This document shows, piece after piece, positions 10,326 to 39,129 of a stretch of 64,000 nucleotides of DNA. Under the pieces are notes generated by a model that searched no databases, was not told the DNA's origin, and worked only from the letters and a program-made list of their open reading frames with translations. The DNA comes from Planctomycetota bacterium. GTDB lineage: Bacteria > Planctomycetota > UBA8108 > SXIK01. The translations under genes and the position numbers were made by a program. The DNA is taken from assembly GCA_965223265.1 (NCBI GenBank), contig OZ244999.1, positions 4,608,001 through 4,672,000 of the forward strand, written 5' to 3'. Position 1 is the stretch's first letter. Each line of letters starts with the position of its first letter.

Positions 10326-10862
10326 ATGAACTCTCGAAACATTTCGCTCGCAGGTCTCACACTGGCTGGGGCTCTTCTCTCCTCCGGTTGTGGCGCCGAC
10401 GAAGAAGCGCCGCTAACCGACGGCCTGCACCTAAAATACCGCTGGAGCGTGGTCGGCAGTGTGGTGTCCGTCGACATCAGAGTGAACAAGGTCGACGAAG
10501 ATCACTTTCTCCTCAACATCGAAGCCGAAAAAGATGGAGAGGCAGAACAGACCGCCTTGCAAGTAGATCGTTTCTTCAAAACGGAGAAGGGCGAACTGGC
10601 TTCGTTCGCCGGTCAACCGCTCTGGTTGCCAGCTTCGCGGCGCAAGAAGGGAGTCGCCGTCGTGGCTGACGGCTCGATCACAATGCGCAAGGAAAGAGCT
10701 TGGGATCGCTGGAACGTCTGGGCCGCTGGTGGCGGCGCAGTGCTCGGCACGGTCGAATGGTACTACGAGAGAGACACTGGGTTCTTGGTCGGGTCACGAG
10801 CGGAAAGCATGGGGTCGGGGATGCATCTAAAACTCATGGAAACGAACGCTCCGGGGCTATAG
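10326..10862 (+). CDS. putative lipoprotein
   Basis: Signal peptide ending in lipobox LSSG-C; 178 aa, beta-rich. Confidence 0.7.
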   Translation: MNSRNISLAGLTLAGALLSSGCGADEEAPLTDGLHLKYRWSVVGSVVSVDIRVNKVDEDHFLLNIEAEKDGEAEQTALQVDRFFKTEKGELASFAGQPLWLPASRRKKGVAVVADGSITMRKERAWDRWNVWAAGGGAVLGTVEWYYERDTGFLVGSRAESMGSGMHLKLMETNAPGL

Positions 10863-10888
10863 TCGAAAAACGTTCGTCGCTGAGCTCT

Positions 10889-11683: not shown

Positions 11684-11807
11684 GAATCTTCCATCTCCTG
11701 CCGGGTCGCCGCCCCCTCTCCCCCGCCTCGTCTCACCTTTGCGAGATTGTAGTGACAAGGGCAGCTGTCGCGACAGGATCAGAGGCACACACCGAGGCAC
11801 GAACCAG

Positions 11808-14800
11808 TGCAGCTCACTCGCACACCTCGTAGTACTGACACGAGAGCGCATCAGCGCTCGAGTCGACGCCGCAGAGCTGCGGTGGCTCGGGCGCCGCGCC
11901 GCCCACGAAAAGGTGCAGGAGCAGCTTCACCGCGTCGCTCACCGTCACGCGTCCGTCGTCGTCGACGTCCGCCGCCCTCACGCAGGTCGGTGCCGCGCCG
12001 CGGCGAAACAGGTAGTTGAGCAGCGTCAGCGCGTCGCCAAGTGCCAGAGTGCCGTCGGCCTCCACGTCGCCGCGCTGAAACAGCGCCTCCGAGCGCTCTC
12101 CCTTCTCGTAGAACGTCGCCGCTTCCTCGGCGATCAGCGCGTAGCTCCCATCGAGGTAGCGCACCTGCGCCACCTCCTCGGCCTCTCCGGGAAGCACCGG
12201 ATCCGGAGCCTCCACCTCCACCACTCGCACCGCGCGAGCAAGACCCGCGACCGAAAGCGCCGGGTCCAGAACCACCCAGTAGCGAACGTCCACGTTGTGG
12301 CGACCCGCCGAGTAGACCAGTTGCCAGTAGTCGCTCACCACAACCGACTCGCCGCCGCCAAACACCACCGAAGCACGCTGAAGACTCGCAGGGCCCGTCG
12401 ATTGGCGATTCTCCGACGGCAAAAATCGCTCCACTAAATCGATCCGTGCACCGCTCGACGTCTCCAACGAAAGCTCCCAGCGCGGCAAGAGCCCATCGCT
12501 ACACGACGAGTAACTCACCAGAGGCTCACCCGCCAAGCTCCCCGTCGACACCAGCGAAAACCTCAAAAACTCCTCGTCCACCAAAAACCGCTCCTCCAGC
12601 GCGCGCGAGCCCGCACCGCGAAGCTCCACTCCCAAAAGCTGCACCACGTAGCTCTCGCCACCCAGCAGCGTGAACTCCTGCTCGTAGCTGAAGCGATACA
12701 GCGTCACTCCACCCCCCTCCGCTACCCGCGCCACGCGGTAAAGACCCGCCGCCACAGCCTGAGCCTCCTCCTGCTCAGGGCCAAAGCGAACACTCTCGAT
12801 CAGCTCACCTGAAAAACTCTCCGAGCTCGTCACAAGCTCGTGCACTCCGGCGCGCAGACGCACCTCGCTCTTCAGCTCGTACTCCACCTGGGGATCGCGG
12901 CCAGTGCGGTCCGCCGAAAACACCCCGCACAAAACCGTCCCCTCGGGAACCAAAAGCTCAAAAGCCGGTGACGGCACAACCGTCTCCGGAATCAAAAACG
13001 GACGCACCTGCTTCACCGCTAATGAGCCGTCCGCCTCCACCTTGAACTCAAAGTCCAAAAGCACCTGCTCGCGAGGATAACCTTCAAGATCCAAAGGAAA
13101 GTTCGTATCCACATGCCACATCAGAGAACCCAGATCTCCCAGCTGCTCCTCCGTCAGAACCACCTCCCCCGCACCAACCAGAGATGAGCTCCGGTCGCGA
13201 ACGATCCGCACTACCTCACCTTCAACCACCTCCAAAAAATTCCGCTCCACGCTCACACCCGCCGCTGGACTCACTACGCTCTCCTCGCCAACCTGAGCGG
13301 TGATCATGTAGCGCCGATCTCGAACGTTCTGAGGGTTACCGGTGAACGCAACTCCGTTCGCTGCCTCATCGAGGAAGGCCCGGTTCACCAGCAAACCCAT
13401 CGTCGCTGCCTCTGGAGGAATCTGGAAAAACGTCCGCTCCTCATGCGCTCGGAACGTCCAAAGGCTCGACCACACCTTCTTCAGAGCGCGCTCGATCGTC
13501 CGCTCGTTGTCGCGCGTCGCGTCGCAGTGAGAGCTGTCAGGGCTCGCAGGGTCCAGCGTGTCCGCGGCGCACGCAGACGTCGACTCGTAAAGGCCCGCAC
13601 CGTTGAACTCCAGCGCGTCCTCGACATTCGACGACGAGCGAAAGCGAACCATCAGAGCGCGAGAGCCGAAAACCTCTTCGATCCGCCCTACAAGCCCCGC
13701 CACCAGCGCTGGCGACACCTCGCCACGATCTCGCACAAAGTCGCGAAATTCATCCAGCACCCTGAAGCGCACAGATGAATCGCTCTTGAACTCCTCACTC
13801 GATAGCAGCTCCGTCAGATACTCCTGGTAGCTCAGGTCGCGTCCCTCGATCGCGACGCGGTTCGACTCCATGAACTCCACGTAGTAGCGCATCGGGATGC
13901 CAAAACCAGCCTCTTGAAACTCAGCGTACTCCCCAGTCAAAACTCGCTGCAGCCGCGCAAGGTTCGTCGCCTTGCCGCCGAAGCGAGACACCGGGTTCAC
14001 AACGCCCTCCAGATCCATATCCAAGAGGTGATCAAAGCCGCCGTACTCCCGATCGGTCCCAGCAAGGCGCGGCAGCGAAGGCTGGTTCTCCCGCCAAAAC
14101 TCCTCAGCCTCAGACACACTCGCTGGCTCCACTAAGTACGTCACCTCACCCACCTCAAGGCGCACCAGCTCGCCCGCAAAGCGGGAAAACTCCTCCACTG
14201 CTCCCAATACAAACGCGTTCGGGGTCCCGCGCCGTGCCGTCCGCACCGCCACGTGACTCAGTGGCCCTTGAATGCTTCCCGTCACGAAACCACCGATCAC
14301 ACCCTCTACGTCCTGCGGCGCCGTCTCCACAACCACTATGTCTTGAAACGTGAACAGACCCTGAGAGTTCGCGCTCTCGAACTCCTCCAGCGTGAACACG
14401 CGCACCCGCCCGTAACCCACTCCAAGCGTGTAAGCCTCGTACTCCAGCTCCGGGGTAGGCTCCGTCAAAATCGGAAACGCAGGATCACTCCAGCTCGAAG
14501 CAGCCTCCTTCGCAAGCTGCGTGTCCGGCTCGTAGCCTAAAAGCTCTAAATCAAACGCCCCCTTCAGCTCCAGGTACACGCTCTCAACCTCAGACTCGCT
14601 CAAAACCTCAGAGGCGTCAGAGCCTGTGTCCGCAAACACCGTGAAAGCGTACTCGATTCCACCCGAGCCTCGCCGCCGAGCGATCGAGCCCACGTAGTAG
14701 TCGCGCGTTGCGCGGCGCCCTACCAGCTGGTCGTACTCCTCCCCTTGAGGGCGCGTCGGAAACTGATCCGGAAACGCTCCAGCCAGAAAATCCTCGTGAA

Positions 14801-14936
14801 GGCTGAAACGACGAACGTTCTGAAACACCGCTGGGATCAAGCTCCCGTCGTCACCACGCGCCGGCACCACGTACTTCGTGAAGCGACCAAGGCTCGACGG
14901 AACCGAAATGCTGAAAAAGTCCCCTTCCGTGCAGAC
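11808..14936. repeat. 3.1-kb near-identical repeat, copy 1 (constant cassette; GRINS-like skew)
   Basis: Same offset at both ends to 17258-20386 (5450) and to 28851-31936 (17039); C/A-rich on the + strand. Confidence 0.92.
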
Positions 14937-17267
14937 CTGTTCAAGAAAGTCGCCGCCGAGTCGCGGTGCTTGATTCAAAAGCACCGTGAGGTCACGTGAA
15001 TTACGGTTGGCGCTGACGAGATCGAGATCGCCGTCGCGATCGAGATCGCCTGCGACGCCGAAGCGCGGCTGCGAGCCAACCGGCTGGACCACGGGCAGGG
15101 TGAATGATCGATCACCGTTGCTAAAGAACGTCGCGAGCGTGTTGGTCGATGGGCTGGATGCAATCACATCGAGAATCCCGTCACCGTCGACGTCACCTGC
15201 AATCAAGGAATGCGGTTGCCGTTCGACCGTCAGGTTGGTGACGGCGGAGAAATCGGCTGTGCCATCGTTCCATAGCACTGCGGCACTACCTCTCGACTCA
15301 CTCGCTGTCACTACGTCGACTGCCCCGTCGGCATCGAAGTCACCAGCGATGATAAAGTTCGGTGCATCCGCCACCGGAAAGGCTGTTGTGTCGCCGAATC
15401 CCGCAGCCCCATCGCCACGAAGAATCGCCACGTCCCTCGAGCCTGAGTTGGCCACCGCCAGGTCGACGTTTCCATCGGCGTCGAAATCGACGGCAACAAG
15501 AGCCGCCGGCTGCGTTCCTGCCACAGGCGATGCACCAGCGGCAAACGTACCGTCGCCCTGATTGATCAACACCGAGACCGTTCCCGCCGATTGATTCGAC
15601 GTAACGAGCTCGGGGAAACGATCGCCCGTAAGCTCGGCCGCCGTCACATGCGATGGCGTATCTCCGACTGGGTACTCAACGCTCGTCTCGAAAACACCGT
15701 CGCCTCGGTTGGGAAAGACGTAGAGCGTGTTCGGAAAAATACCGTCGGTCGCCGCGAGGTCGAGGTCACCATCATCATCGACGTCTGCAAGCTCGACGCG
15801 CAGAGGGTTTTCCGCGATCACGTACTCGACAGCGTCGAAAAACGATCCGTCGCCACGATTGACGAAGGCTGAAAGAGCAACGGCGTTGTCGTTGTTCCCC
15901 GTAACAATGTCGAGATGCCCGTCACCGTTGATGTCACCAATGTCCACGGTGTGCGGCTCACTTGCGGCATCGAACGTAGCTGACAAAAACGGAATAGTCC
16001 TCGTCTCACCTTCCGTGTTCCAAACGATGGAGACGTTGTTAGTGCGGACGACGAGGAGAGCGACGTCTACGTCACCGTCACCGTCGAAATCATCAGCCCA
16101 CGATGTCGTCGACGGGAACAGATTCCCGTGGTCTTCGACCGCCGCGCGAAAGTCGCTCGAGCGGTGACTCCTGAGAACTGCGACTTTACCAACGTCGCGA
16201 AATCCGGCCACGAGGTCGAGCTGGCCGTCGCCTTCGATGTCAGCTGCACCAAGCGACGTGACTGAACCTGATAGCGTAAATGTGACCGGCGCAGCGAAGG
16301 TCCCATCCCCACGGTTGACGAGGATCGCGCTGGCACCTGATCCGGCAACCGCCAAGTCGACGTGAGCATCGCCGTTGAGGTTGCCCGCCACGACCGCGAA
16401 CGGCACCCCGGCTCCGGCCGGATAGTCCACGTGCTGCTCGAAGTCTGAGTCAGCTCGGCTTGCGAGTATAGAGACGACGTCCGTCTTGCTAGCCACCGCG
16501 ACGTCGACGATCCCATCATCGTTGAAATCCGCGGCGGCCACGGCGCTCGGCTGCGCAGAAACGGAGAACGGCTTTGGAGCCTCGAACGTGCCGTCACCGC
16601 GGTTCGTTAGGAGTGCGACTTGGCTCTCCGTCTCGATGGTGACGACCAGGTCGTCGCTACCGTCGCCCGTGAAGTCAGCCGCCGCAATTCGTAGCGCCGA
16701 AGGCGCAACGTCATATCCTACCGGAGGCATAAACCCTACGCCCCCCGAGTTCAAAAGCACCTGAATCGAGTCGTCGCTGGCCGTGGCGAGATCTGGACGG
16801 CCATCGCGGTCTAGGTCCGCAACAGTGAAATCCGCCAGCTTTTCACCGGCATCGAAATCGGTCGCCTCAGAAAACCGTCGATCGCCTTCGTTGATCAAAA
16901 GCGACACCGTTGACGATTGGTTCAGCGCCTGGCTTGCCGAGACGAGGTCTCGATCACCATCGCCGTCAAAATCGACGCTGCGAACGACACGCGGGAATCG
17001 TGCCACCGCAAGCGTTGTCGCCTCGACATCAAAGGTCACAGGACTCGCTTCGCACTCATCCGGTATGCCGTTGTTGTTGCAATCGTCGCTCGCGTTATTC
17101 GCGATGTCATCCAAGTCATCGGCGCTGTTACCATTACAGTCGACACCATAGGCATGCGCCGGCGCAAAGGAGAACACGATGGCCGCGCCGAGAAGGATCG
17201 ACGTCTTCGCAAGACGGCTTCTCCACGGGTCTCTTGCGTTTGGTAGATCCGTCTTGCTGCAGCTCAC
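11814..17267 (-). CDS. paralog A: exported FG-GAP repeat / phospho-His + ATP-grasp dikinase / dockerin-like protein (~1,817 aa)
   Basis: Signal-like segment, DCNGN...DCNNNGIPDEC, many DxDGDGxxD FG-GAP repeats, GPLSHVAVRTARRGTPN (His codon 14253-14255), FGGKATNL, RSSSNVED...GAGLYES, KKVWSSLW, DFEFK, KQVRP, and C-terminal FQRGD...ADVDDDGRVTVSDAV. GTG at 17267 overlaps the TGA of paralog B (ORF open from 17273). Confidence 0.88.
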   Translation of the reverse strand: MSCSKTDLPNARDPWRSRLAKTSILLGAAIVFSFAPAHAYGVDCNGNSADDLDDIANNASDDCNNNGIPDECEASPVTFDVEATTLAVARFPRVVRSVDFDGDGDRDLVSASQALNQSSTVSLLINEGDRRFSEATDFDAGEKLADFTVADLDRDGRPDLATASDDSIQVLLNSGGVGFMPPVGYDVAPSALRIAAADFTGDGSDDLVVTIETESQVALLTNRGDGTFEAPKPFSVSAQPSAVAAADFNDDGIVDVAVASKTDVVSILASRADSDFEQHVDYPAGAGVPFAVVAGNLNGDAHVDLAVAGSGASAILVNRGDGTFAAPVTFTLSGSVTSLGAADIEGDGQLDLVAGFRDVGKVAVLRSHRSSDFRAAVEDHGNLFPSTTSWADDFDGDGDVDVALLVVRTNNVSIVWNTEGETRTIPFLSATFDAASEPHTVDIGDINGDGHLDIVTGNNDNAVALSAFVNRGDGSFFDAVEYVIAENPLRVELADVDDDGDLDLAATDGIFPNTLYVFPNRGDGVFETSVEYPVGDTPSHVTAAELTGDRFPELVTSNQSAGTVSVLINQGDGTFAAGASPVAGTQPAALVAVDFDADGNVDLAVANSGSRDVAILRGDGAAGFGDTTAFPVADAPNFIIAGDFDADGAVDVVTASESRGSAAVLWNDGTADFSAVTNLTVERQPHSLIAGDVDGDGILDVIASSPSTNTLATFFSNGDRSFTLPVVQPVGSQPRFGVAGDLDRDGDLDLVSANRNSRDLTVLLNQAPRLGGDFLEQVCTEGDFFSISVPSSLGRFTKYVVPARGDDGSLIPAVFQNVRRFSLHEDFLAGAFPDQFPTRPQGEEYDQLVGRRATRDYYVGSIARRRGSGGIEYAFTVFADTGSDASEVLSESEVESVYLELKGAFDLELLGYEPDTQLAKEAASSWSDPAFPILTEPTPELEYEAYTLGVGYGRVRVFTLEEFESANSQGLFTFQDIVVVETAPQDVEGVIGGFVTGSIQGPLSHVAVRTARRGTPNAFVLGAVEEFSRFAGELVRLEVGEVTYLVEPASVSEAEEFWRENQPSLPRLAGTDREYGGFDHLLDMDLEGVVNPVSRFGGKATNLARLQRVLTGEYAEFQEAGFGIPMRYYVEFMESNRVAIEGRDLSYQEYLTELLSSEEFKSDSSVRFRVLDEFRDFVRDRGEVSPALVAGLVGRIEEVFGSRALMVRFRSSSNVEDALEFNGAGLYESTSACAADTLDPASPDSSHCDATRDNERTIERALKKVWSSLWTFRAHEERTFFQIPPEAATMGLLVNRAFLDEAANGVAFTGNPQNVRDRRYMITAQVGEESVVSPAAGVSVERNFLEVVEGEVVRIVRDRSSSLVGAGEVVLTEEQLGDLGSLMWHVDTNFPLDLEGYPREQVLLDFEFKVEADGSLAVKQVRPFLIPETVVPSPAFELLVPEGTVLCGVFSADRTGRDPQVEYELKSEVRLRAGVHELVTSSESFSGELIESVRFGPEQEEAQAVAAGLYRVARVAEGGGVTLYRFSYEQEFTLLGGESYVVQLLGVELRGAGSRALEERFLVDEEFLRFSLVSTGSLAGEPLVSYSSCSDGLLPRWELSLETSSGARIDLVERFLPSENRQSTGPASLQRASVVFGGGESVVVSDYWQLVYSAGRHNVDVRYWVVLDPALSVAGLARAVRVVEVEAPDPVLPGEAEEVAQVRYLDGSYALIAEEAATFYEKGERSEALFQRGDVEADGTLALGDALTLLNYLFRRGAAPTCVRAADVDDDGRVTVSDAVKLLLHLFVGGAAPEPPQLCGVDSSADALSCQYYEVCE

Positions 17268-20200
17268 TCGCACACCTCATAGTACTGACACGAGAGCGCA
17301 TCAGCGCTCGAGTCGACGCCGCAGCTCTGCGGCGGCTCGGGCGCCGCGCCGCCCACGAAAAGGTGCAGGAGCAGCTTCACCGCGTCGCTCACCGTCACAC
17401 GTCCGTCGTCGTCGACGTCCGCCGCCCTCGCGCAGCTCGGAGCTGCGCCGCGGCGAAAGAGGTAATTCAACAGCGTCAGCGCATCGCCAAGCGCCAGAGT
17501 GCCGTCGGCCTCCACGTCGCCGCGCTGAAACAGCGACTCCGAGCGCTCTCCCTTCTCGTAGAACGTCGCCGCTTCCTCGGCGATCAGCGCGTAGCTCCCA
17601 TCGAGGTAGCGCACCTGCGCCACCTCCGGAGCTTCTCCGGGAAGCACCGGATCGGGAGCCTCCACCTCCACCACTCGCACAGCGCGATCAAGACCCGCTA
17701 CTGAGATCTCTGGATCCAAAACCACCCAGTAGCGAACGTCCACGTTGTGGCGACCCGCCGAGTACACCAGCTGCCAGTAGTCGCTCACCACAACCGACTC
17801 GCCGCCGCCAAACACCACCGAAGCACGCTGAAGACTCGCAGGGCCCGTCGATTGGCGATTCTCAGACGGCAAAAATCGCTCCACTAAATCGATCCGTGCA
17901 CCGCTCGACGTCTCCAACGAAAGCTCCCAGCGCGGCAAGAGCCCATCGCTACACGACGAGTAACTCACCAGAGGCTCACCCGCCAAGCTCCCCGTCGACA
18001 CCAGCGAAAACCTCAAAAACTCCTCGTCCACCAAAAACCGCTCCTCCAGCGCGCGCGAGCCCGCACCGCGAAGCTCCACTCCCAAAAGCTGCACCACGTA
18101 GCTCTCGCCACCCAGCAGCGTGAACTCCTGCTCGTAGCTGAAGCGATACAGCGTCACTCCACCCCCCTCCGCTACCCGCGCCACGCGGTAAAGACCCGCC
18201 GCCACAGCCTGAGCCTCCTCCTGCTCAGGGCCAAAGCGAACACTCTCGATCAGCTCACCTGAAAAACTCTCCGAGCTCGTCACAAGCTCGTGCACTCCGG
18301 CGCGCAGACGCACCTCGCTCTTCAGCTCGTACTCCACCTGGGGATCGCGGCCAGTGCGGTCCGCCGAAAACACACCGCACAAAACCGTCCCCTCGGGAAC
18401 CAAAAGCTCAAACGCCGGTGACGGCACAACCGTCTCCGGAATCAAAAACGGACGCACCTGCTTCACCGCCAGCGAGCCGTCCGGCTCCACCTTGAACTCA
18501 AAGTCCAAAAGCACCTGCTCGCGAGGATAGCCTTCAAGATCCAGAGGAAAGTTCGTATCCACATGCCACATCAGAGAACCCAGATCACCCAGCTGCTCCT
18601 CCGTCAGAACCACCTCCCCCGCACCAACCAGAGATGAGCTCCGGTCGCGAACGATCCGCACCACCTCGCCTTCAACCACCTCCAAAAAGTTCCGCTCCAC
18701 GCTCACACCCGCCGCTGGACTCACTACGCTCTCCTCGCCAACCTGCGCCGTGATCATGTAGCGACGATCTCGAACGTTCTGAGGGTTACCGGTGAACGCA
18801 ACTCCGTTCGCTGCCTCATCGAGGAAGGCCCGGTTCACCAGCAGACCCATCGTCGCTGCCTCTGGAGGAATCTGGAAAAACGTCCGCTCCTCGTGCGCGC
18901 GGAACGTCCAAAGGCTCGACCACACCTTCTTCAGCGCCCGCTCGATCGTCCGCTCGTTGTCGCGCGTCGCGTCGCAGTGCGAGCTGTCAGGGCTCGCAGG
19001 GTCCACTGTGTCCGCGGCGCACGCAGACGTCGACTCGTAAAGGCCCGCACCGTTGAACTCCAGGGCGTCCTCGACATTCGACGACGAGCGAAAGCGAACC
19101 ATCAGCTCCCGCGAGCCGAAAACCTCTTCGATCCGCGCTACAAGCGACGCCACCAGCGCTGGCGACACCTCGCCGCGGTCTCGCACAAAGTCGCGAAATT
19201 CATCCAGCACCCTGAAGCGCACTGATGAGTCGCTCTTGAACTCCTCACTCGATAGCAGCTCCGTCAGATACTCCTGGTAGCTCAGGTCGCGTCCCTCGAT
19301 CTCGACGCGGTTCGACTCCATGAACTCCACGTAGTAGCGCATCGGGATGCCAAAGCCAGCCTCTTGAAACTCAGCGTACTCTCCAGTCAAAACTCGCTGC
19401 AGCCGCGCAAGGTTCGTCGCCTTGCCGCCGAAGCGAGACACCGGGTTCACTACGCCCTCCAGATCCATATCCAACAGGTGATCAAAGCCGCCGTACTCTC
19501 GATCGGTCCCAGCAAGGCGCGGCAGCGAAGGCTGGTTCTCTCGCCAAAATTCCTCCGCCTCAGATACACTCGCTGGCTCCACCAAATACGTCACCTCACC
19601 CACCTCAAGGCGCACCAGCTCGCCCTCAAAGCGGGAAAACTCCTCCACCGCTCCCAGTACAAACGCGTTCGGGGTCCCGCGCCGCGCCGTCCGCACCGCC
19701 ACGTGACTCAGTGGCCCTTGAATGCTACCCGTCACGAAACCACCGATCACACCCTCTACGTCCTGCGGCGCCGTCTCCACAACCACTATGTCTTGAAACG
19801 TAAAGAGACCCTGAGAGTTCGCGCTCTCGAACTCCTCCAGCGTGAACACGCGCACCCGCCCGTAACCCACTCCAAGCGTGTAAGCCTCGTACTCCAGCTC
19901 CGGGGTAGGCTCCGTCAAAATCGGAAACGCTGGATCACTCCAGCTCGAAGCAGCCTCCTTCGCAAGCTGCGTGTCCGGCTCGTAGCCTAAAAGATCTAAA
20001 TCAAACGCCCCCTTCAGCTCCAGGTACACGCTCTCAACCTCAGACTCACTCAAAACCTCAGAGGCGTCAGAGCCTGTGTCCGCAAACACCGTGAAAGCGT
20101 ACTCGATTCCACCCGAGCCTCGCCGCCGAGCGATCGAGCCCACGTAGTAGTCGCGCGTTGCGCGGCGCCCTACCAGCTGGTCGTACTCCTCCCCTTGAGG

Positions 20201-20386
20201 GCGCGTCGGAAACTGATCCGGAAACGCTCCAGCCAGAAAATCCTCGTGAAGGCTGAAACGACGAACGTTCTGAAACACCGCTGGGATCAAGCTCCCGTCG
20301 TCACCACGCGCCGGCACCACGTACTTCGTGAAGCGACCAAGGCTCGACGGAACCGAAATGCTGAAAAAGTCCCCTTCCGTGCAGAC
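17258..20386. repeat. 3.1-kb near-identical repeat, copy 2
   Basis: From TGCAGCTCACTCGCACACCTC to CCCCTTCCGTGCAGAC, collinear with 11808-14936. Confidence 0.92.
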
Positions 20387-28365: not shown

Positions 28366-28850
28366 CGTTTCTCCAGCGTGTGTGGTGGTCTACAACCCGA
28401 ACCACGAAGTCGCGAGGTCCGATCTTCTCACCACTTGGCGACTGCTTGAGAAGCTGGCAGCGCCGCGGTGAGAACAACCGTTCGCCTGCTGACACCCTCC
28501 TCGATCTCAGCTGATCGAATTCACCCAACGGAAGAGGCCACTCCTTCCGAAACTGGCCGCCATCGTGCCTGGCACGCGAGGCGTGGTCAACGATTGATTG
28601 AGGCACGCACCTGGACAAGTCCGCTCATTCGGTTGAACGAGGTCGCAGGTGAGATCGTTCCGGCAACCTCGAAAACCGTGTGCCTTTCCGGTCTCCGTAG
28701 CCGTCTGAGTTCGAGAGCGTGGACCGCGCGACGAACTCAAAACGAAGAGTCCCGCGCGTCAACGAATCGTGCTCGGCCCTGGATCGCAGGATCCACGCTA
28801 CTGGCGTACGCGTACCGTCGTTCGAATCAACGACGGCCTGCGGGCGACGG

Positions 28851-31800
28851 GCTCACTCGCACACCTCATAGTACTGACACGAGAGCGCATCAGCGCTCGA
28901 GTCGACGCCGCAGTTCTGCGGCGGCTCGGGCGCCGCGCCGCCCGCGAAAAGGTGCAGGAGCAGCTTCACCGCGTCGCTCACCGTCACGCGTCCGTCGTCG
29001 TCGACGTCCGCCGTCTTGACGCAGCTCGGTGCCGCGCCGCGGCGAAACAGGTAATTCAACAGCGTCAGCGCATCGCCAAGCGCCAGAGTGCCGTCGGCCT
29101 CCACGTCGCCGCGCTGAAACAGCGACTCCGAGCGCTCTCCCTTCTCGTAGAACGTCGCCGCTTCCTCGGCGATCAGCGCGTAGCTCCCATCGAGGTAGCG
29201 CACCTGCGCCACCTCCGGAGCTTCTCCGGGAAGCACCGGATCGGGAGCCTCCACCTCCACCACTCGCACAGCGCGATCAAGACCCGCTACTGAGATCTCT
29301 GGATCCAAAACCACCCAGTAGCGAACGTCTACGTTGTGACGGCGCGCCGAGTAGACCAGCTGCCAGTAGTCGCTCACCACAACCGATTCGCCACCGCCGA
29401 ACACCACTGACGCGCGCTGGAGACTCGCCGGACCTGTCAGCAAGCGCCCTTCTGGTGGCAAAAATCGCTCCACTAAATCGATCCGTGCACCGCTCGCCGT
29501 CTCCAACGAAAGCTCCCAGCGCGGCAAGAGCCCATCGCTACACGACGAGTAACTCACCAGAGGCTCACCCGCCAAGCTCCCCGTCGACACCAGCGAAAAC
29601 CTCAAAAACTCCTCGTCCACCAAAAACCGCTCCTCCAGCGCACGCGAGCCCGCACCGCGAAGCTCCACTCCCAAAAGCTGCACCACGTAGCTCTCGCCAC
29701 CCATCAGCGTGAACTCCTGCTCGTAGCTGAAGCGATACAGCGTCACTCCACCCCCCTCCGCTACCCGCGCCACGCGGTAAAGACCCGCCGCCACAGCCTG
29801 AGCCTCCTCCTGCTCAGGGCCAAAGCGAACACTCTCGATCAGCTCACCTGAAAAACTCTCCGAGCTCGTCACAAGTTCGTGCACTCCGGCGCGCAGACGC
29901 ACTTCGCTCTTCAGCTCGTACTCCACCTGGGGATCGCGGCCAGTGCGGTCCGCCGAAAACACCCCGCACAAAACCGTCCCCTCGGGAACCAAAAGCTCAA
30001 AAGCCGGTGACGGCACAACCGTCTCCGGAATCAAAAACGGACGCACCTGCTTCACCGCCAGCGAGCCGTCCGGCTCCACCTTGAACTCAAAGTCCAAAAG
30101 CACCTGCTCGCGAGGATAACCTTCAAGATCCAAAGGAAAGTTCGTATCCACATGCCACATCAGAGAACCCAGATCTCCCAGCTGCTCCTCCGTCAGAACC
30201 ACCTCCCCCGCACCAACCAAAGATGAGCTCCGGTCGCGAACGATCCGCACCACCTCGCCTTCAACCACCTCCAAAAAATTCCGCTCCACGCTCACACCCG
30301 CCGCTGGACTCACTACGCTCTCCTCGCCAACCTGAGCGGTGATCATGTAGCGCCGATCTCGAACGTTCTGAGGGTTACCGGTGAACGCAACTCCGTTCGC
30401 TGCCTCATCGAGGAAGGCCCGGTTCACCAGCAAACCCATCGTCGCTGCCTCTGGAGGAATCTGGAAAAACGTCCGCTCCTCATGCGCTCGGAACGTCCAA
30501 AGGCTCGACCACACCTTCTTCAGCGCACGCTCAATCGTCCGCTCGTTGTCGCGCGTCGCGTCGCAGTGTGAGCTGTCAGGGCTCGCAGGGTCCAGCGTGT
30601 CCGCGGCGCACGCAGACGTCGACTCGTAAAGGCCCGCACCGTTGAACTCCAGCGCGTCCTCGACATTCGACGACGAGCGAAAGCGAACCATCAGAGCGCG
30701 AGAGCCGAAAACCTCTTCGATCCGCCCTACAAGCCCCGCCACCAGCGCTGGCGACACCTCGCCACGATCTCGCACAAAGTCGCGAAATTCATCCAGCACC
30801 CTGAAGCGCACAGATGAATCGCTCTTGAACTCCTCACTCGATAGCAGCTCCGTCAGATACTCCTGGTAGCTCAGGTCGCGTCCCTCGATCGCGACGCGGT
30901 TCGACTCCATGAACTCCACGTAGTAGCGCATCGGGATGCCAAAACCAGCCTCTTGAAACTCAGCGTACTCCCCAGTCAAAACTCGCTGCAGCCGCGCAAG
31001 GTTCGTCGCCTTGCCGCCGAAGCGAGACACCGGGTTCACAACTCCCTCCAGATCCATATCCAACAGGTGATCAAAGCCGCCGTACTCCCGATCGGTCCCA
31101 GCAAGGCGCGGCAGCGAAGGCTGGTTCTCCCGCCAAAACTCCTCAGCCTCAGACACACTCGCTGGCTCCACCAAGTACGTCACCTCACCCACCTCAAGGC
31201 GCACCAGCTCGCCCGCAAAGCGGGAAAACTCCTCCACTGCTCCCAATACAAACGCGTTCGGGGTCCCGCGCCGTGCCGTCCGCACCGCCACGTGACTCAG
31301 TGGCCCTTGAATGCTTCCCGTCACGAAACCACCGATCACACCCTCTACGTCCTGCGGCGCCGTCTCCACAACCACTATGTCTTGAAACGTGAACAGACCC
31401 TGAGAGTTCGCGCTCTCGAACTCCTCCAGCGTGAACACGCGCACCCGCCCGTAACCCACTCCAAGCGTGTAAGCCTCGTACTCCAGCTCCGGGGTAGGCT
31501 CCGTCAAAATCGGAAATGCAGGATCACTCCAGCTCGAAGCAGCCTCCTTCGCAAGCTGCGTGTCCGGCTCGTAGCCTAAAAGCTCTAAATCAAACGCCCC
31601 CTTCAGCTCCAGGTACACGCTCTCAACCTCAGACTCGCTCAAAACCTCAGAGGCGTCAGAGCCTGTGTCCGCAAACACCGTGAAAGCGTACTCGATTCCA
31701 CCCGAGCCTCGCCGCCGAGCGATCGAGCCCACGTAGTAGTCGCGCGTTGCGCGGCGCCCTACCAGCTGGTCGTACTCCTCCCCTTGAGGGCGCGTCGGAA

Positions 31801-31936
31801 ACTGATCCGGAAACGCTCCAGCCAGAAAATCCTCGTGAAGGCTGAAACGACGAACGTTCTGAAACACCGCTGGGATCAAGCTCCCGTCGTCACCACGCGC
31901 CGGCACCACGTACTTCGTGAAGCGACCAAGGCTCGA
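28851..31936. repeat. 3.1-kb near-identical repeat, copy 3
   Basis: From GCTCACTCGCACACCTC to AAGCGACCAAGGCTCGA, collinear with 11812-14897; one locally divergent patch at about 29330-29460. Confidence 0.92.
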
Positions 31937-34276
31937 GGGGATCGAGACGTTGACGAAATCGAACTCTGTACAGATGTGCGACAGAAAGTCCTCTCTGAAA
32001 ATCTGTGTCTGATTGAACAGCACGCGGATGTCTCGCTCGCCATGATTCTGACTGACGATGTCGATGTCACCGTCGAGATCGACATCGCCGGTAACCACAA
32101 AGCGCGGCTCAATCCCGACCGTGAACGGTCCGGCGAGAGTAAACGTACGCGGTCCGGTTCCGACAAGAACTGAGACGTTTGCATCCGGTTGATTTGACGT
32201 CACGAGGTCGAGCTGTCCGTCACCGTTGACGTCGGCGATGACCAATGAATGGGGTCCCCCATGGACGTCGATGACCTCGGCCTCAAATCGAGGCACACCG
32301 GCGTCACTCCCCGCATTCCAAAGAATCGTAACGTTGCCACGCGACTCGCTCGCCGTGACCAAGTCGTTTCTCGCATCGCCGTCGAGGTCACTGGCGACCA
32401 CGTAGTTAGGTGGCATCAAAATCGGCTCGCTAGCCTCCCGAAAACCGTCGCCGTCGTTGAGAAGCATGAACACGCTGGAGGAGCCAGAATTGGCGACGAC
32501 GACGTCCGCGCGCCGATCGCCGTTGACGTCCGCGACGGTCGTCGCTCTCGGACCAGCTCTGGAGTCGAATGTCTCCCGACGTTCGAAACCTCCTCCACCG
32601 TCGTTGAACATGATCGTGACACTGCTGGTCGAAGCGTTCGAGCTAATGACCTCCGGCGCACCGTCGCCGTCAACGTCGCCTGCAGTGACGTGGAACGCAG
32701 TACCGCCAACGACATATGTCGTACCGCTCTCGAAAAACCCGGTGCCGTCGTTCGGTTGTATGAGAACTCTGCACTGGGTGCACGACCCACCAGGCGGCGG
32801 TGCTAACCCTGAGGCTAAATCGAGGTCGCCATCGCGATCGAAGTCGGCCAGCACAATCGAAAAGGGATGACCCTGCGTGATGTGGTACTTGATCGCAGGC
32901 TCAAACGTGCCATTCCCACGATTCATGAACACAGTGACGCCGTTGCTGGAACTGTTGTTGCCCGTCACGACATCGAGGTCGCCGTCACGATCGAGATCAC
33001 CGATGGCGATGGAGTGCGGTTGCCCCTCAACGAGGTGGCGCTCAGGCGGCGAAAACGTCAACGGCGCGCCCGAATCAGGAATGCTGCGAAATGTGGCGAC
33101 TGCGTTGGATGCGAGCAGTGCGAAATCAAGCGCACCATCGCCATCGAAATCGATGGGAGTCGCGCCGGAAGAGCGCGCGATATTCTCGTACAGCTCGACC
33201 GCAGGTCGGTACGACTCCGCCCCCATGTTTCGAATGATCACCGTCTGCGCCGCGCTGCGAAACCCAAGAAGTAGATCATGGTCATGGTCGCCATCAAAAT
33301 CACCGGCACTGAGCGAGCTGGCGGTTTCGGGGAACGTCACCAGACGCGGCGGCGCCAATGTGCCCCCGTCCTGATTGATGAGCACGGCCACTCGGCCGCT
33401 GTCGGCAGCGGCAACATCGATGTCACCATCGCCATCAAGATCGACGGCTGTCACGGCCAGTGGACGCACAAGCGGTGTATCGTGCTCGATCGGTGCAGCG
33501 AAGTCTCCGCCGCCGCGAGACTCGATGACAGCAAGCCGACCAATCGCTCGGCGTGCCACAACCATGTCGGCGACCCCGTCGGCGGTGACGTCGCCAAGCG
33601 CGATCGAGCTAGGCGACTCGTCCACCTCGACCCACACAGGCGCCCCGAACGCGCCAGCCTCGTTTCGAAGCACTCCAACGCGTCCAACCGTAGAGTGTGC
33701 GGTCACTATGTCGACCGCTCCGTCTCCCGTTACATCGCCCGCGGCGAGATCCCTCGAACTCTCACCCAACTCAAAAAACGTCGGCGCCCGAAACGACCCC
33801 GTGCCTTCACCGACGAGAAGTGCGACTTTCGAGTCGTTCGTCGCCGCCAGATCGACACGACCGTCCGCATCAAAATCAGCTGCCACGAGTGCTCCAAGCT
33901 GCGTCCCAGCGTCGAACTCGATGGCGGCCGCGAATTCGTCACCTTGACGACGCAAGATCGACACCGTCGAACTCCCGTCGGGTTTCAAGTTGCCCGTGAC
34001 GATGTCCGCATCCCCATCGCCATCAACATCGCAGCCGAGAATCGCGAGGGGAAATCTTGTCACACTGAGCTCAGCGTCGGCAGCCTCAAAGGCGAGATCA
34101 ATGCCGTCGCATTCGTCGGGGATACCATTGCCGTTACAATCGGGGCTTGACGCAGCAGCAAGATCCTCAGCATCCTCCACGTCGTTCCCGTTGCAGTCGA
34201 TCGCCCGGACATCGCTGGTAGGCAGTAAGCCAAACGTCACCACGAAAAAGGCGATCTGCCGTCTTGACGAACTCAT
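28853..34276 (-). CDS. paralog D: exported FG-GAP / dikinase / dockerin-like protein (1,807 aa)
   Basis: ATG at 34276 with GGGAGG RBS; signal peptide ending VRA-IDCNGND; His codon 31292-31294; same C-terminal cassette as A and B. Confidence 0.9.
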   Translation of the reverse strand: MSSSRRQIAFFVVTFGLLPTSDVRAIDCNGNDVEDAEDLAAASSPDCNGNGIPDECDGIDLAFEAADAELSVTRFPLAILGCDVDGDGDADIVTGNLKPDGSSTVSILRRQGDEFAAAIEFDAGTQLGALVAADFDADGRVDLAATNDSKVALLVGEGTGSFRAPTFFELGESSRDLAAGDVTGDGAVDIVTAHSTVGRVGVLRNEAGAFGAPVWVEVDESPSSIALGDVTADGVADMVVARRAIGRLAVIESRGGGDFAAPIEHDTPLVRPLAVTAVDLDGDGDIDVAAADSGRVAVLINQDGGTLAPPRLVTFPETASSLSAGDFDGDHDHDLLLGFRSAAQTVIIRNMGAESYRPAVELYENIARSSGATPIDFDGDGALDFALLASNAVATFRSIPDSGAPLTFSPPERHLVEGQPHSIAIGDLDRDGDLDVVTGNNSSSNGVTVFMNRGNGTFEPAIKYHITQGHPFSIVLADFDRDGDLDLASGLAPPPGGSCTQCRVLIQPNDGTGFFESGTTYVVGGTAFHVTAGDVDGDGAPEVISSNASTSSVTIMFNDGGGGFERRETFDSRAGPRATTVADVNGDRRADVVVANSGSSSVFMLLNDGDGFREASEPILMPPNYVVASDLDGDARNDLVTASESRGNVTILWNAGSDAGVPRFEAEVIDVHGGPHSLVIADVNGDGQLDLVTSNQPDANVSVLVGTGPRTFTLAGPFTVGIEPRFVVTGDVDLDGDIDIVSQNHGERDIRVLFNQTQIFREDFLSHICTEFDFVNVSIPSSLGRFTKYVVPARGDDGSLIPAVFQNVRRFSLHEDFLAGAFPDQFPTRPQGEEYDQLVGRRATRDYYVGSIARRRGSGGIEYAFTVFADTGSDASEVLSESEVESVYLELKGAFDLELLGYEPDTQLAKEAASSWSDPAFPILTEPTPELEYEAYTLGVGYGRVRVFTLEEFESANSQGLFTFQDIVVVETAPQDVEGVIGGFVTGSIQGPLSHVAVRTARRGTPNAFVLGAVEEFSRFAGELVRLEVGEVTYLVEPASVSEAEEFWRENQPSLPRLAGTDREYGGFDHLLDMDLEGVVNPVSRFGGKATNLARLQRVLTGEYAEFQEAGFGIPMRYYVEFMESNRVAIEGRDLSYQEYLTELLSSEEFKSDSSVRFRVLDEFRDFVRDRGEVSPALVAGLVGRIEEVFGSRALMVRFRSSSNVEDALEFNGAGLYESTSACAADTLDPASPDSSHCDATRDNERTIERALKKVWSSLWTFRAHEERTFFQIPPEAATMGLLVNRAFLDEAANGVAFTGNPQNVRDRRYMITAQVGEESVVSPAAGVSVERNFLEVVEGEVVRIVRDRSSSLVGAGEVVLTEEQLGDLGSLMWHVDTNFPLDLEGYPREQVLLDFEFKVEPDGSLAVKQVRPFLIPETVVPSPAFELLVPEGTVLCGVFSADRTGRDPQVEYELKSEVRLRAGVHELVTSSESFSGELIESVRFGPEQEEAQAVAAGLYRVARVAEGGGVTLYRFSYEQEFTLMGGESYVVQLLGVELRGAGSRALEERFLVDEEFLRFSLVSTGSLAGEPLVSYSSCSDGLLPRWELSLETASGARIDLVERFLPPEGRLLTGPASLQRASVVFGGGESVVVSDYWQLVYSARRHNVDVRYWVVLDPEISVAGLDRAVRVVEVEAPDPVLPGEAPEVAQVRYLDGSYALIAEEAATFYEKGERSESLFQRGDVEADGTLALGDALTLLNYLFRRGAAPSCVKTADVDDDGRVTVSDAVKLLLHLFAGGAAPEPPQNCGVDSSADALSCQYYEVCE

Positions 34277-39007: not shown

Positions 39008-39031
39008 CAGCGAACGCCCACGTATCAGCTG

Positions 39032-39077: not shown

Positions 39078-39129
39078 CGTCGGTGAGGCCTCAGAGCGCT
39101 CGGTTTTCCGGTGGCGTGCGGCAGCGCTG

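What the first reader, a model, noticed from the sequence alone, without database searches (positions are those of the whole stretch)
11814..34276. Array of giant exported FG-GAP / dikinase / dockerin proteins: candidate undescribed surface phosphorylation system
Seen: four tandem ~1,800-aa genes, plus a fifth at 54.5-59.9 kb, share one architecture. It runs N-terminal hydrophobic signal, DCNGN..DCN.N.IPDEC, ~750 aa of FG-GAP repeats (about two propellers), a His domain (LSHVAVRTARRGTP), an ATP-grasp domain (GGKA, RSSSNVED, GAGLYES, VWSSLW, DFEF, QVRP) and a dockerin-like tail. I see no TM segment between the propellers and the kinase part. Established: His-swivel plus ATP-grasp pairs occur in PEP synthase, PPDK, rifampicin phosphotransferase and glucan-water dikinase, which are intracellular enzymes. 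Inference: these are exported, surface-docked dikinases whose propellers select different targets (glycans, proteins or other cells). The catalytic motifs are intact in all five copies, which argues for retained activity. I know of no characterised system with this architecture, but could not search.
Basis: partly seen in the sequence, partly recalled or inferred. Interest (0 to 1): 0.92.

Follow-up and report, generated by a model that had tools for sequence, protein, structure and literature searches.

The report
Exported propeller-dikinase-dockerin gene family array
Five of 35 copies of a giant exported planctomycete protein join variable calcium-binding propellers to a constant ATP-driven phospho-histidine engine built like plant starch dikinases, which is puzzling because ATP is not expected outside the cytoplasm.

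Summary
Five intact minus-strand genes of 1807-1872 codons share one plan: signal peptide, Cys-rich DCN cap, 14 FG-GAP repeats and a ~1030-aa constant module. That module holds an unassigned N-domain, a His domain, a PPDK_N ATP-grasp, an unassigned beta-rich domain and a dockerin.

They are 5 of 35 paralogues in a 9.18-Mb Planctomycetota genome. The His-then-ATP-grasp order, and weak but family-specific hits to Pfam GWD1_pHisD, point to plant glucan,water dikinases. They do not point to PEP synthase: PF00391 is not detected and there is no PEP barrel.

Four lines support export: signal peptides, lipobox-bearing relatives in Myxococcota, eight conserved cysteines in the constant module, and fusions to extracellular modules. 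The phospho-acceptor His and ATP-site residues are kept in 35 of 35 paralogues.

New here: the constant halves of genes 1, 2 and 4 are 97% identical in DNA with mosaic conversion tracts, while their propeller halves are about 50% identical. Two other tandem clusters show the same pattern.

Activity, substrate, docking and the external ATP source remain untested. No characterised family with this architecture turned up. The scan had already flagged other paralogues of this genome. Verdict: a new variant of a known kind, of high interest.

The parts
11814..17273 (-). Gene 1 (P0001, 1819 aa). The database gene call is 1817 aa, starting at the GTG at 17267 that overlaps the stop of gene 2 as GTGA.
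17151..17273 (-). Gene 1 signal peptide, residues 1-41: basic n-region, h-region ILLGAAIVFSF, then AHA before YGVDC.
   Evidence: Sequence read; hydropathy; the same layout occurs in 33 of 33 long paralogues. No SignalP was run.
17049..17141 (-). Gene 1 Cys-rich cap DCNGN..DCNNNGIPDEC, residues 45-75, with three conserved Cys.
   Evidence: A strict two-part motif is found in 40 frames of the genome, 31 of them family members.
14949..17021 (-). Gene 1 variable head: 14 FG-GAP Ca-loop repeats, residues about 85-775. Two seven-bladed propellers are inferred.
   Evidence: Identity between copies is 30-48% aa and about 50% nt.
14451..14900 (-). Constant-module N-domain, const 1-150 = residues 792-941. 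Alpha/beta fold, no family assigned. Invariant H35 and F43 in the 41-sequence alignment A2.
14076..14450 (-). His domain, const 151-275 = residues 942-1066. Swivelling beta/beta/alpha fold. The conserved His1007 (codon 14253-14255) sits at the start of a short helix in LSHVAVRTARRGTPN.
12981..14000 (-). PPDK_N-type ATP-grasp nucleotide-binding domain, const 301-640. Motifs GGKA, RFRSSSNVED, GAGLYES, DFEFK and KQVRP. It carries a family-specific loop with two invariant Cys.
12096..12968 (-). Beta-rich C-domain, const 645-935. No family or fold assigned. Two Cys conserved in 35 of 35 paralogues.
11817..12083 (-). Dockerin type I-like tail with four conserved Cys, const 940-1028.
17264..22756 (-). 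Gene 2 (P0002, 1830 aa; database call 1815 aa). Its homogenised constant block is 17264-20347.
22747..28365 (-). Gene 3 (P0003, 1872 aa as the longest ORF; database call 1847 aa). Its constant half is only about 71% aa and about 70% nt identical to genes 1, 2 and 4.
28853..34276 (-). Gene 4 (P0004, 1807 aa). Its homogenised constant block is 28853-31936.
54515..59938 (-). Gene 5 (P0005, 1807 aa). Its constant half is 50-58% identical to the others.
11814..14897 (-). 3084-nt constant block of gene 1. It is 97.0-97.5% identical to the blocks of genes 2 and 4, with mosaic conversion tracts.

Best explanation
These genes encode Sec-exported modular enzymes of one large, uncharacterised family.

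The catalytic core. A constant module carries a His-dikinase engine in the glucan,water-dikinase order. By analogy with GWD, PPDK and rifampin phosphotransferase, an ATP-grasp domain would bind ATP, pass the beta-phosphate to His1007 on a swivelling domain just upstream, and release AMP and Pi. The His domain would then swing to an acceptor site. I place that site in the conserved N-domain and/or the C-domain.

The targeting parts. Fourteen Ca-binding FG-GAP blades in front of the core form a paralogue-specific head that brings the engine to different ligands. The dockerin tail would hold the protein on cohesin-bearing scaffolds.

Genome dynamics. The genome keeps 35 such genes. In tandem clusters, gene conversion homogenises the constant half while the heads stay far apart.

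Shown here: the architecture, the ATP-grasp fold, residue conservation, the export signals, the copy number and the conversion mosaic.

Inferred: phosphoryl transfer, the acceptor site, targeting by the propellers, docking, and any external ATP supply.
For: ATP-grasp:
- Pfam PPDK_N at E 1e-13 to 1e-17, in 49 of 50 family members.
- A family profile hits PEP synthase 8a8e at E 1e-12, with GGK, RSS and E..Q.RP aligned.
- The AF2 model has pLDDT 89.5. Foldseek matches rifampin phosphotransferase 5hv1 at E 1.9e-15 and its ATP domain 5hv6_A at TMt 0.73.

Catalytic residues: K310, R419, R421, E618, K620, Q631 and R633 are each kept in 35 of 35 paralogues, and D616 in 34 of 35. E618, K620, K630, Q631 and R633 are invariant in 50 of 50 family members.

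His domain:
- H216 (=H1007) is invariant in 35 of 35 paralogues and 41 of 41 aligned sequences.
- The AF2 model of const 1-300 has pLDDT 91.3. Its Foldseek hits are all swivelling beta/beta/alpha domains.
- Pfam GWD1_pHisD hits 16 of 50 members and 8 of 10 His segments, colinear, best 23.8 bits against a cut-off of 27.
- A six-frame scan of the whole genome with that model gives 25 hits at E<=1, all 25 inside the family's His segments and none elsewhere.
- The domain order matches StGWD1 (PMC13553574, sections 6 and 13).

Export:
- A signal-like N-terminus occurs in 33 of 33 long paralogues.
- Short forms have a signal peptide directly before the constant module.
- Six of six ~700-aa relatives inspected have lipoboxes, one of them in a cluster named Polyangiaceae.
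- A crude signal heuristic is positive in 161 of 197 family proteins.
- There is no internal TM segment.
- Eight Cys columns are conserved in 34-35 of 35 paralogues.
- Relatives are fused to CHB_HEX_C, Fn3_assoc, LTD, Lcl_C and TSP3_bac modules.

Conversion:
- The constant halves are 97.0-97.5% nt identical while the heads are about 50%.
- Three consecutive blocks support three different groupings of genes 1, 2 and 4.
- 91 of 129 variable sites are at codon position 3.
- Two other tandem clusters show 98.8-99.2% constant identity against 34-37% head identity.
Against: - No ATP source is known outside the cytoplasm, and nothing in the window or near the 35 loci suggests one.
- No hit of the His domain to any phosphohistidine family reaches a curated threshold.
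- PF00391 is not found at E<=0.1 in the three proteins scanned, hits only 1 of 50 members at E<=10, and is not found in the family by the genome scan.
- A His-domain profile against PDB sequences gives nothing significant; the PPDK central domain 2fm4 scores E 0.69 among noise.
- hhalign against canonical PEP-utiliser domains gives P 0.064 and probability below 1%, although the two His residues align.
- Foldseek on const 1-300 has no hit at E<=0.001, and known phosphohistidine domains appear only far down the list.
- I could not read coordinates, so I did not verify the reach of His1007 to the ATP site or the disulfides.
- No substrate-binding module of any known dikinase is present: no CBM45, CBM20 or PEP barrel.
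- No RNA or protein evidence of expression was available.
Confidence: 0.55

Rival explanations
1. Nucleotide-binding but non-phosphorylating surface proteins. The family would be an adhesin or receptor repertoire in which the dikinase-like module only binds (for example senses) extracellular nucleotides, or serves as a scaffold. The propellers would do the real work.
For: ATP is scarce outside cells, and no partner or ATP-supply gene recurs near the 35 loci. The family's diversity lies in the propellers. A relative, P0211, keeps propellers, C-domain and dockerin but has no dikinase core.
Against: The phospho-acceptor His and the phosphate/Mg ligands of the ATP-grasp are kept in 35 of 35 paralogues at a median 56-59% domain identity and in relatives named as Myxococcota and Kiritimatiellia. 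91 of 129 variable sites in the constant block are at third codon positions. Pure binding would not need the His.
Confidence: 0.17
2. Effectors that act inside another cell. The proteins would be exported, bind a prey or competitor surface through the variable propellers, and the dikinase part would work only after entry into a foreign cytoplasm, where ATP is available.
For: The plan of variable binding head plus constant enzymatic part. The large repertoire of 35 copies. This reading removes the ATP problem.
Against: No translocation domain, secretion-system marker or immunity-like small gene recurs beside the genes. The ~700-aa relatives are lipoproteins, which argues for a resident envelope enzyme. 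The dockerin tail suggests retention on the producer.
Confidence: 0.1
3. Same engine, other chemistry. Phosphoryl transfer would activate a group for condensation or cleavage, as the PPDK_N/PEP-utiliser proteins PigC and RedH do in prodiginine synthesis, rather than leave a phosphate on a polymer.
For: Weak NCBIfam hits of the ATP-grasp to RedH and PigC (E 3e-4 to 1e-2, far under their cut-offs). Two unassigned conserved domains could hold such a site.
Against: The same weak hits go to PEP synthase and rifampin phosphotransferase, so they only mark the superfamily. The ATP problem remains.
Confidence: 0.1
4. Cytoplasmic enzymes whose N-termini are wrongly read as signal peptides.
For: No SignalP or DeepTMHMM run was possible. 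My heuristic is crude, and 36 of 197 family proteins failed it.
Against: 33 of 33 long paralogues show n-region, h-region and a small-x-small site followed at once by a Cys-rich cap. Relatives carry lipoboxes. Other evidence includes conserved cysteine columns, Ca-loop FG-GAP repeats, the dockerin, and fusions to extracellular modules.
Confidence: 0.05

Closest known systems
Plant/algal alpha-glucan,water dikinase GWD1 and phosphoglucan,water dikinase (EC 2.7.9.4 / 2.7.9.5)
   Same: Same order: binding modules, then a further domain, then the His domain, then a C-terminal PPDK_N-type ATP-binding domain (PMC13553574, abstract and sections 6 and 13). The conserved His sits on a short helix. The only phosphohistidine Pfam model that picks up this family is GWD1_pHisD.
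   Different: No CBM45 or CBM20. It has two FG-GAP propellers, an extra beta-rich C-domain and a dockerin. It carries a signal peptide and conserved cysteines instead of a plastid location. All GWD1_pHisD scores are under the cut-off (best 24.4 bits against 27). The substrate is unknown.
Rifampin phosphotransferase (Listeria RPH, PDB 5hv1/5hv3/5hv6)
   Same: Best structural match of the ATP-grasp domain (E 1.9e-15; TMt 0.73 to the isolated ATP domain). It is also a three-part His-dikinase.
   Different: RPH runs ATP-grasp, drug-binding domain, then His domain, and is cytoplasmic. NCBIfam RIF_Ptrans_rph scores 13.8 bits against a cut-off of 999.
PEP synthase / pyruvate,phosphate dikinase
   Same: Homologous nucleotide-binding domain, with GGK, RSS and E..Q.RP motifs aligned (Pfam PF01326).
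   Different: No PEP/pyruvate TIM barrel, and PF00391 is not detected. The domain order is permuted. NCBIfam PEP-synthase models score 17-28 bits against cut-offs of about 600-880.
HpeHI two-component hydroxyphenylethanone kinase (PDB 9goj HpeI)
   Same: Foldseek E 2.4e-9 to the ATP-grasp part. Another case of the dikinase engine rebuilt in a new arrangement (PMC12167813, seen as a search listing only).
   Different: It is split into two cytoplasmic proteins and acts on a small aromatic substrate.
Cellulosomal type I dockerin-bearing enzymes
   Same: C-terminal duplicated Ca-loop/helix module: Pfam Dockerin_1 scores 25.8 bits against a cut-off of 22.9 in P0001, and profile hits to solved dockerins reach E about 3e-5. 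Cohesin-like domains exist in the genome (3 over the cut-off).
   Different: The cargo is not a glycoside hydrolase. The tail has four extra conserved Cys. More than 100 other proteins of this genome carry the tail. Binding to a cohesin was not shown.

Membership tests
Glucan,water dikinase family (GWD/PWD) | C-terminal PPDK_N-type nucleotide-binding domain with intact ATP-site residues | tested here: met
Glucan,water dikinase family (GWD/PWD) | Phosphohistidine domain (Pfam PF22973) immediately upstream of the ATP domain, with the catalytic His | tested here: inconclusive
   Position, swivel fold and an invariant His are present. PF22973 hits are colinear and exclusive to the family (25 of 25 genome hits; 8 of 10 segments), but all are under the 27-bit cut-off.
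Glucan,water dikinase family (GWD/PWD) | Starch-binding modules (CBM45 or CBM20) and the GWD central domain | tested here: not met
   No such Pfam hit at E<=0.1 in P0001, P0003 or P0005. FG-GAP repeats and an unassigned N-domain stand in their place.
Glucan,water dikinase family (GWD/PWD) | ATP + glucan + H2O -> AMP + phosphoglucan + Pi through a beta-phospho-His intermediate | not testable with these tools
   Needs a biochemical assay.
PEP synthase / PPDK (PEP-utilising enzymes) | PEP-utiliser mobile domain PF00391 | tested here: not met
   No hit at E<=0.1; 1 of 50 members at E 0.042. The genome scan finds 6 PF00391 matches, none in this family. hhalign gives P 0.064.
PEP synthase / PPDK (PEP-utilising enzymes) | C-terminal PEP/pyruvate-binding TIM barrel, and the order ATP-grasp then His then barrel | tested here: not met
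   No PEP-utilizers_C hit. The His domain precedes the ATP-grasp.
Rifampin phosphotransferase | Equivalog model NF041857 and the order ATP-grasp, rifampin-binding domain, His domain | tested here: not met
   13.8-14.8 bits against a cut-off of 999. The order differs.
Type I dockerin | Duplicated Ca-binding loop-helix segment recognised by PF00404 | tested here: met
   P0001 scores 25.8 bits, over the 22.9 cut-off; P0003 (18.1) and P0005 (21.7) fall under it. 27 of 50 members hit. The profile hits solved dockerins at E 3e-5 to 8e-3.
Type I dockerin | Binds a cognate cohesin | not tested
   Cohesin-like domains exist in the genome. The single fold test run gave no verdict and counts neither way.
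FG-GAP / VCBS beta-propeller | Tandem FG-GAP repeats with Ca-binding loops, in multiples of seven | tested here: met
   PF13517 E 1e-63 to 2e-83 and PF01839 E 5e-25 to 2e-29. 13-14 Ca-loop motifs per protein. Closure into propellers was not modelled.

The most novel reading that the evidence does not exclude
Planctomycetota of this order, with related lipoproteins in Myxococcota, run a true extracytoplasmic phosphorylation system. In this genome that would mean dozens of scaffold-docked His-dikinases, each aimed by its own pair of propellers at a different polymer or cell surface, writing phosphate esters outside the cytoplasmic membrane. This implies an as yet unknown supply of ATP, or of another phosphoryl donor, to the enlarged planctomycete periplasm or cell surface. 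Gene conversion would keep one optimised engine while the targeting heads diversify.
Probability: 0.3. Interest if true: 0.9.

Novelty: new variant of a known kind. Interest (0 to 1): 0.72.

Why it matters
His-dikinases (PEP synthase, PPDK, GWD, rifampin phosphotransferase) are known as cytoplasmic or plastid enzymes. This is a family of several hundred sequence clusters in which the complete engine sits behind signal peptides or lipoboxes, is fused to extracellular binding modules, and is expanded to 35 copies (about 2% of one genome).

Two outcomes are possible, and both are of interest. Either bacteria phosphorylate material outside the cytoplasm, which raises the question of where the ATP comes from. 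Or a fully conserved dikinase engine has been given another job.

The constant module of about 1030 aa, and the natural short forms, are directly testable in vitro. The sharp-edged homogenisation of the constant half next to saturated divergence of the heads is also a clean bacterial example of domain-limited concerted evolution.

Tried and rejected
Searches and tests that led nowhere:
- A PDB sequence search with the single constant region found only weak dockerin hits.
- A His-domain profile against PDB sequences found nothing significant. The top rows are HLA chains, TruD and pertussis toxin S1 as noise, and the PPDK central domain scores E 0.69.
- hhalign of the His-domain alignment A3 against canonical PEP-utiliser domains of this and related genomes (A4) gave P 0.064 and probability under 1%. 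I treat this as inconclusive.
- ESM Atlas look-ups of the C-domain gave no usable hit, both for the window's own copy and for P0095. The fold of the C-domain stays unassigned. In the whole-module Foldseek list only low-probability GFP and porin barrels appear.
- The complex prediction test of a genome cohesin (L011 ORF, residues 335-490) with the gene-1 dockerin tail and 2 Ca gave no verdict: score 0.30 against a mark of 0.34, and the controls were not run. It counts neither way.
- The look-up of sequencing runs listed no RNA holder: four DNA holders from one study plus one empty run.
- Read laying on those four runs showed contigs identical to the unique halves (14907-17291, 20357-24538, 24514-28880, 31907-34276) that break at the repeat borders. 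The runs probably include the source sample, so this is not independent support. It does not confirm the order of the array.

Conserved neighbours: 316 flanking frames were examined. No partner gene recurs. The largest cluster (22 frames) is held together only by the common dockerin module. CotH adjacency occurs only in this window: of the 11 CotH-like paralogues, none of the others lies beside a family gene. PSCyt/DUF1549-type neighbours recur 9 times, but I did not test enrichment.

The promoter/terminator scan of 10500-30400 found 0 promoter-like sites and fewer terminator-like sites than the shuffles, so it was uninformative.

Literature. Searches found no paper on this architecture.
- The Omnitrophota preprint's only 'dikinase' is selenide,water dikinase (passage read).
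- The giant-gene preprint only lists PPDK_N among frequent domains, in a figure legend.
- Supplementary files were not asked for and are closed. They could hold domain tables that bear on this.
- PMC3882102, on extracellular ATP in bacterial cultures, was seen as a listing only and is not used as evidence.

Ideas considered and dropped:
- An assembly artefact as the source of the near-identical halves. Rejected, because the three copies differ at 129 sites in a mosaic pattern.
- Recent duplication with fast head evolution. Rejected, because the heads are about 50% identical in DNA, which is saturated, next to 97% in the constant block.

Recalled, not tested: the SCOP grouping of MccF C-domain, aconitase swivel, RraA, MJ0783, the carbamoyl-phosphate-synthetase small-subunit N-domain and phosphohistidine domains as one 'swivelling beta/beta/alpha' fold; and the roles of the PPDK ATP-site residues.
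Full report
1. THE OBSERVATION

All are open.

Pfam was run on three of them (P0001, P0003, P0005). It finds:
- 10-11 stretches of FG-GAP_3 (E 1e-63 to 2e-83) plus FG-GAP;
- PPDK_N PF01326 (E 1e-13 to 1e-17);
- Dockerin_1 (E 1e-5 to 3e-3, over the curated cut-off only in P0001).

Each protein has 13-14 Ca-loop motifs at a period of about 50 aa once off-period regex hits are discounted by eye. That is enough for two seven-bladed propellers, but I did not model them.

The only hydrophobic stretches near TM level are the N-terminal ones, plus one D/E-containing beta-like stretch in P0003. The window is planctomycete: a PSCyt1/PSCyt2 protein lies at 62323 onward, and database relatives are named Planctomycetes/Planctomycetota bacterium.

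2. ANATOMY

Aligning the five proteins splits them cleanly. Up to about residue 780 they are 30-48% identical. From there to the end:
- genes 1, 2 and 4 are 96-100% identical;
- gene 3 is about 71% identical to them;
- gene 5 is 50-58% identical.

I call the last ~1030 residues the constant module. 'Const' position p equals P0001 residue p+791.

An AlphaFold2 model built on a 50-sequence alignment (A1) is confident: mean pLDDT 89.5, pTM 0.74. The module divides as follows:
- alpha/beta N-domain, const 1-150;
- a domain of about 125 aa carrying the conserved His, const 151-275;
- a linker;
- the ATP-grasp, const 301-640;
- a beta-rich C-domain, const 645-935;
- the dockerin, const 940-1028.

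3. THE ATP-GRASP

A profile of A1 hits PEP synthase 8a8e at E 1e-12. GGK, the RSS strand and the E..Q.RP end are aligned. Foldseek puts rifampin phosphotransferase first (5hv1 E 1.9e-15; isolated ATP domain 5hv6_A TMt 0.73). HpeI follows (9goj, E 2.4e-9), then D-Ala-D-Ala ligases at weak scores.

E618, K620, K630, Q631 and R633 are invariant in 50 of 50 aligned family members. K310, R419, R421, S422, S423, E427, D428, E618, K620, K630, Q631 and R633 are each kept in 35 of 35 paralogues of this genome, and D616 in 34 of 35. The match of these residues to the PPDK ATP-site residues is from recall.

A loop with two invariant Cys (const 444 and 459) falls in a profile stretch that does not align to PEP synthase.

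4. THE HIS DOMAIN

This is the weakest link, so I tested it five ways.

(a) Conservation. H216 (=His1007) is invariant in 41 of 41 and 35 of 35. In both models it sits at the start of a short helix followed by a strand. StGWD1, PPDK and RPH also expose their catalytic His on a short helix (PMC13553574, section 13).

(b) Fold. A separate model of const 1-300 has pLDDT 91.3. It gives no Foldseek hit at E<=0.001. The list (E 1.6e-3 upward, probability about 1.0) is MccF C-domain, AF_0055, aconitase X, MJ0783, RraA and the carbamoyl-phosphate-synthetase small subunit. Lower down come the C-terminal domain of S. aureus pyruvate kinase and an enzyme-I fragment. From recall, SCOP groups these as the swivelling beta/beta/alpha fold that also holds phosphohistidine domains. 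So the fold class fits, but the superfamily is not shown.

(c) Pfam. GWD1_pHisD (PF22973) hits 16 of 50 members at E<=10, and PF00391 hits 1 of 50. On ten isolated His segments, PF22973 hits 8 of 10, always colinear. The best is 23.8 bits, E 3.5e-5, against a cut-off of 27.

(d) Specificity. A six-frame scan of the whole 9.18-Mb genome with PF22973 at E<=1 returns 25 matches. All 25 lie inside the His segments of the family as mapped, and none lies elsewhere. None reaches the cut-off, and 5 of 14 control genomes also give sub-threshold hits.

(e) Canonical PEP-utiliser domains. The genome scan with PF00391 finds six other genes and none of this family. hhalign of the family's His alignment against 16 canonical domains aligns His on His, but with P 0.064 and probability under 1%. 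A profile search of PDB sequences is empty.

My reading is that this is a real, very diverged phosphohistidine-type domain closer to the GWD kind. I put that at about 80%.

5. DOMAIN ORDER

The order is head, N-domain, His, ATP-grasp. StGWD1 runs CBM45, CBM45, central domain, His domain, ATP-binding domain. That paper stresses that this order differs from PPDK and RPH (PMC13553574, abstract and sections 6 and 13).

No CBM45, CBM20 or PEP barrel is present. NCBIfam equivalog models for PEP synthase, RPH, PigC and RedH all score 12-28 bits against cut-offs of 600-1350. So this works like a GWD-type dikinase but is not a member of any characterised family.

6. EXPORT

- All 33 long paralogues show a basic n-region, an uncharged h-region and a small-x-small site. 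The cap DCNxNG...DCNxNxxPDEC follows at once.
- The strict two-part cap occurs in 40 frames of the genome, 31 of them in this family.
- The database holds natural short forms of 1070-1100 aa in which a signal peptide leads straight into the constant module.
- About 700-aa forms stop after the ATP-grasp, and six of six inspected begin with a lipobox. One sits in a cluster with a member named Polyangiaceae, 'PEP/pyruvate-binding domain-containing protein'.
- A crude heuristic of my own (uncharged 12-mer with KD >= 1.9, followed by an AxA-like site or lipobox) is positive in 161 of 197 usable family proteins. That breaks down as 105 of 123 propeller forms, 48 of 54 direct forms and 8 of 20 others. 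It misses some signals visible by eye, such as P0095.
- Eight Cys columns of the constant module are kept in 34-35 of 35 paralogues.
- In other lineages the core is fused to CHB_HEX_C, Fn3_assoc, beta-helix, LTD, fn3 and TSP3_bac modules (P0210, Kiritimatiellia), to Lcl_C (P0187), or to 15 FG-GAP stretches (P0178).

Taken together I put export at about 85-90%.

7. SIZE AND SPREAD OF THE FAMILY

The genome has 35 full constant modules: 33 in frames of 1794-1917 aa, 2 in frames of 1074 and 1098 aa, and one fragment. Over 100 further proteins share only the dockerin tail.

The word-indexed search returned 256 relatives, a capped figure. The exhaustive search of 50%-identity representatives gave 830 at E<=1e-30. 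Sources name them only 'FG-GAP-like/VCBS repeat-containing' or 'PEP/pyruvate-binding domain-containing'.

In 301 genomes sampled across the phylum, 19 have a match at E<=1e-30. Strong full-length matches occur in all 7 other genomes sampled from the same order and in one genome of another family. Elsewhere there are weaker matches of about 700-1000 aa.

8. CONCERTED EVOLUTION

This is the feature specific to this array. In DNA the heads of genes 1, 2 and 4 are about 50% identical. From gene-1 nucleotide 2377 to the stop codon, the three genes are 97.0-97.5% identical over 3084 nt, and identity drops to about 43% right after the stop.

Of the 129 variable sites, 91 are at third codon positions. 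They also fall into consecutive blocks with different groupings:
- nt 2676-4350: gene 2 is the odd one;
- nt 4410-4983: gene 4 is the odd one;
- nt 5005-5259: gene 1 is the odd one.

That pattern is a recombination mosaic, meaning gene conversion confined to the constant half. Gene 3 lies between genes 2 and 4 but has escaped it, at about 70% nt identity.

The same contrast appears in two other tandem clusters: 99.2% constant against 36.7% head, and 98.8% against 34.2%. Some dispersed pairs look like ordinary duplicates, at 74% against 67%.

Short-read contigs from four runs of one study reproduce the unique halves without differences and break at the repeat borders. These runs are probably not independent of the assembly.

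Genes 3, 2 and 1 abut or overlap; the stop of gene 2 and a GTG start of gene 1 form GTGA. A SAM-methyltransferase ORF overlaps the end of gene 1 by 38 nt.

9. MECHANISM AND THE OPEN PROBLEM

The best-supported reading is a constant His-dikinase engine carried by paralogue-specific propeller heads and held by a dockerin.

The N-domain has invariant or near-invariant polar residues (H35, N28, R66). This suggests, by inference only, one common acceptor chemistry for all paralogues, with the heads supplying the address.

Against this stands the lack of any known ATP source outside the cytoplasm. Nothing near the 35 loci hints at one. Cohesin-like domains exist in the genome (3 over the cut-off), but binding was not shown.

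The rival readings are listed separately: a binding-only module, an effector acting in another cell, activation chemistry, and a cytoplasmic location.

10. NOVELTY

No paper describing this architecture was found with the searches. The proteins are in public databases under domain-level names only.

Earlier notes of this scan had already described two other paralogues of this same genome as exported GWD-order dikinase fusions, and had described a cohesin-dockerin system. I re-tested those points here. This report adds:
- the genome-wide specificity test of the His domain;
- the lipoprotein and other fused forms outside the phylum;
- the count of 35 paralogues;
- the domain-limited gene conversion.

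I class the finding as a new variant of a known kind (the His-dikinases), with high interest because of its predicted location.

Noticed in passing
window 38983-41322 (+): A 779-aa protein with an N-terminal dockerin, a lamin-tail domain and a CotH kinase domain (Pfam E 4e-13). This is a second kinase-like protein tagged for the same docking system. The genome has about 11 CotH-like paralogues, and none of the others lies next to a dikinase gene.
   Followed up: partly
window 41584-45273 (+) and 45335-47704 (-): Two further FG-GAP proteins with UnbV_ASPIC domains, one also with TPR. BNR/sialidase-like propeller proteins lie at 8717-10021 and 48172-51183. The window is dense in secreted-type propeller proteins.
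   Followed up: no
G000:C1:8070875-8072029 (-): A 384-aa frame joins a dockerin module to the constant module's N-domain alone (const 4-149, E 1.4e-27). The unassigned N-domain therefore also exists as a free-standing docked unit.
   Followed up: no
database protein P0211 (1331 aa); also P0214, P0218, P0222: These relatives carry the C-domain and dockerin without the dikinase core. In P0211, the one scanned, FG-GAP repeats precede them. The C-domain plus dockerin is therefore a separable unit.
   Followed up: partly
L011:1111-2922 (-) = G000:C1:9018728-9020539: A 603-aa secreted protein with a dockerin at each end and a cohesin-like domain between them. It looks like an adaptor scaffold.
   Followed up: partly
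window 10889-11851 (-): A SAM-dependent methyltransferase ORF (Methyltransf_25, E 1.5e-16) overlaps the 3' end of gene 1 by 38 nt on the same strand. It may be co-transcribed with the array.
   Followed up: no
window 62323-63999 (+) and eight other loci near family genes: PSCyt1/PSCyt2 (DUF1549) proteins recur within 8 kb of 9 of the 35 family genes, with a second recurring neighbour family of 7. These families are very common in planctomycetes, and I did not test enrichment.
   Followed up: no
window 2641-3375 (+): A serine recombinase (Resolvase N-terminal domain plus Recombinase) lies 8 kb from the array. No link to the array was examined.
   Followed up: no
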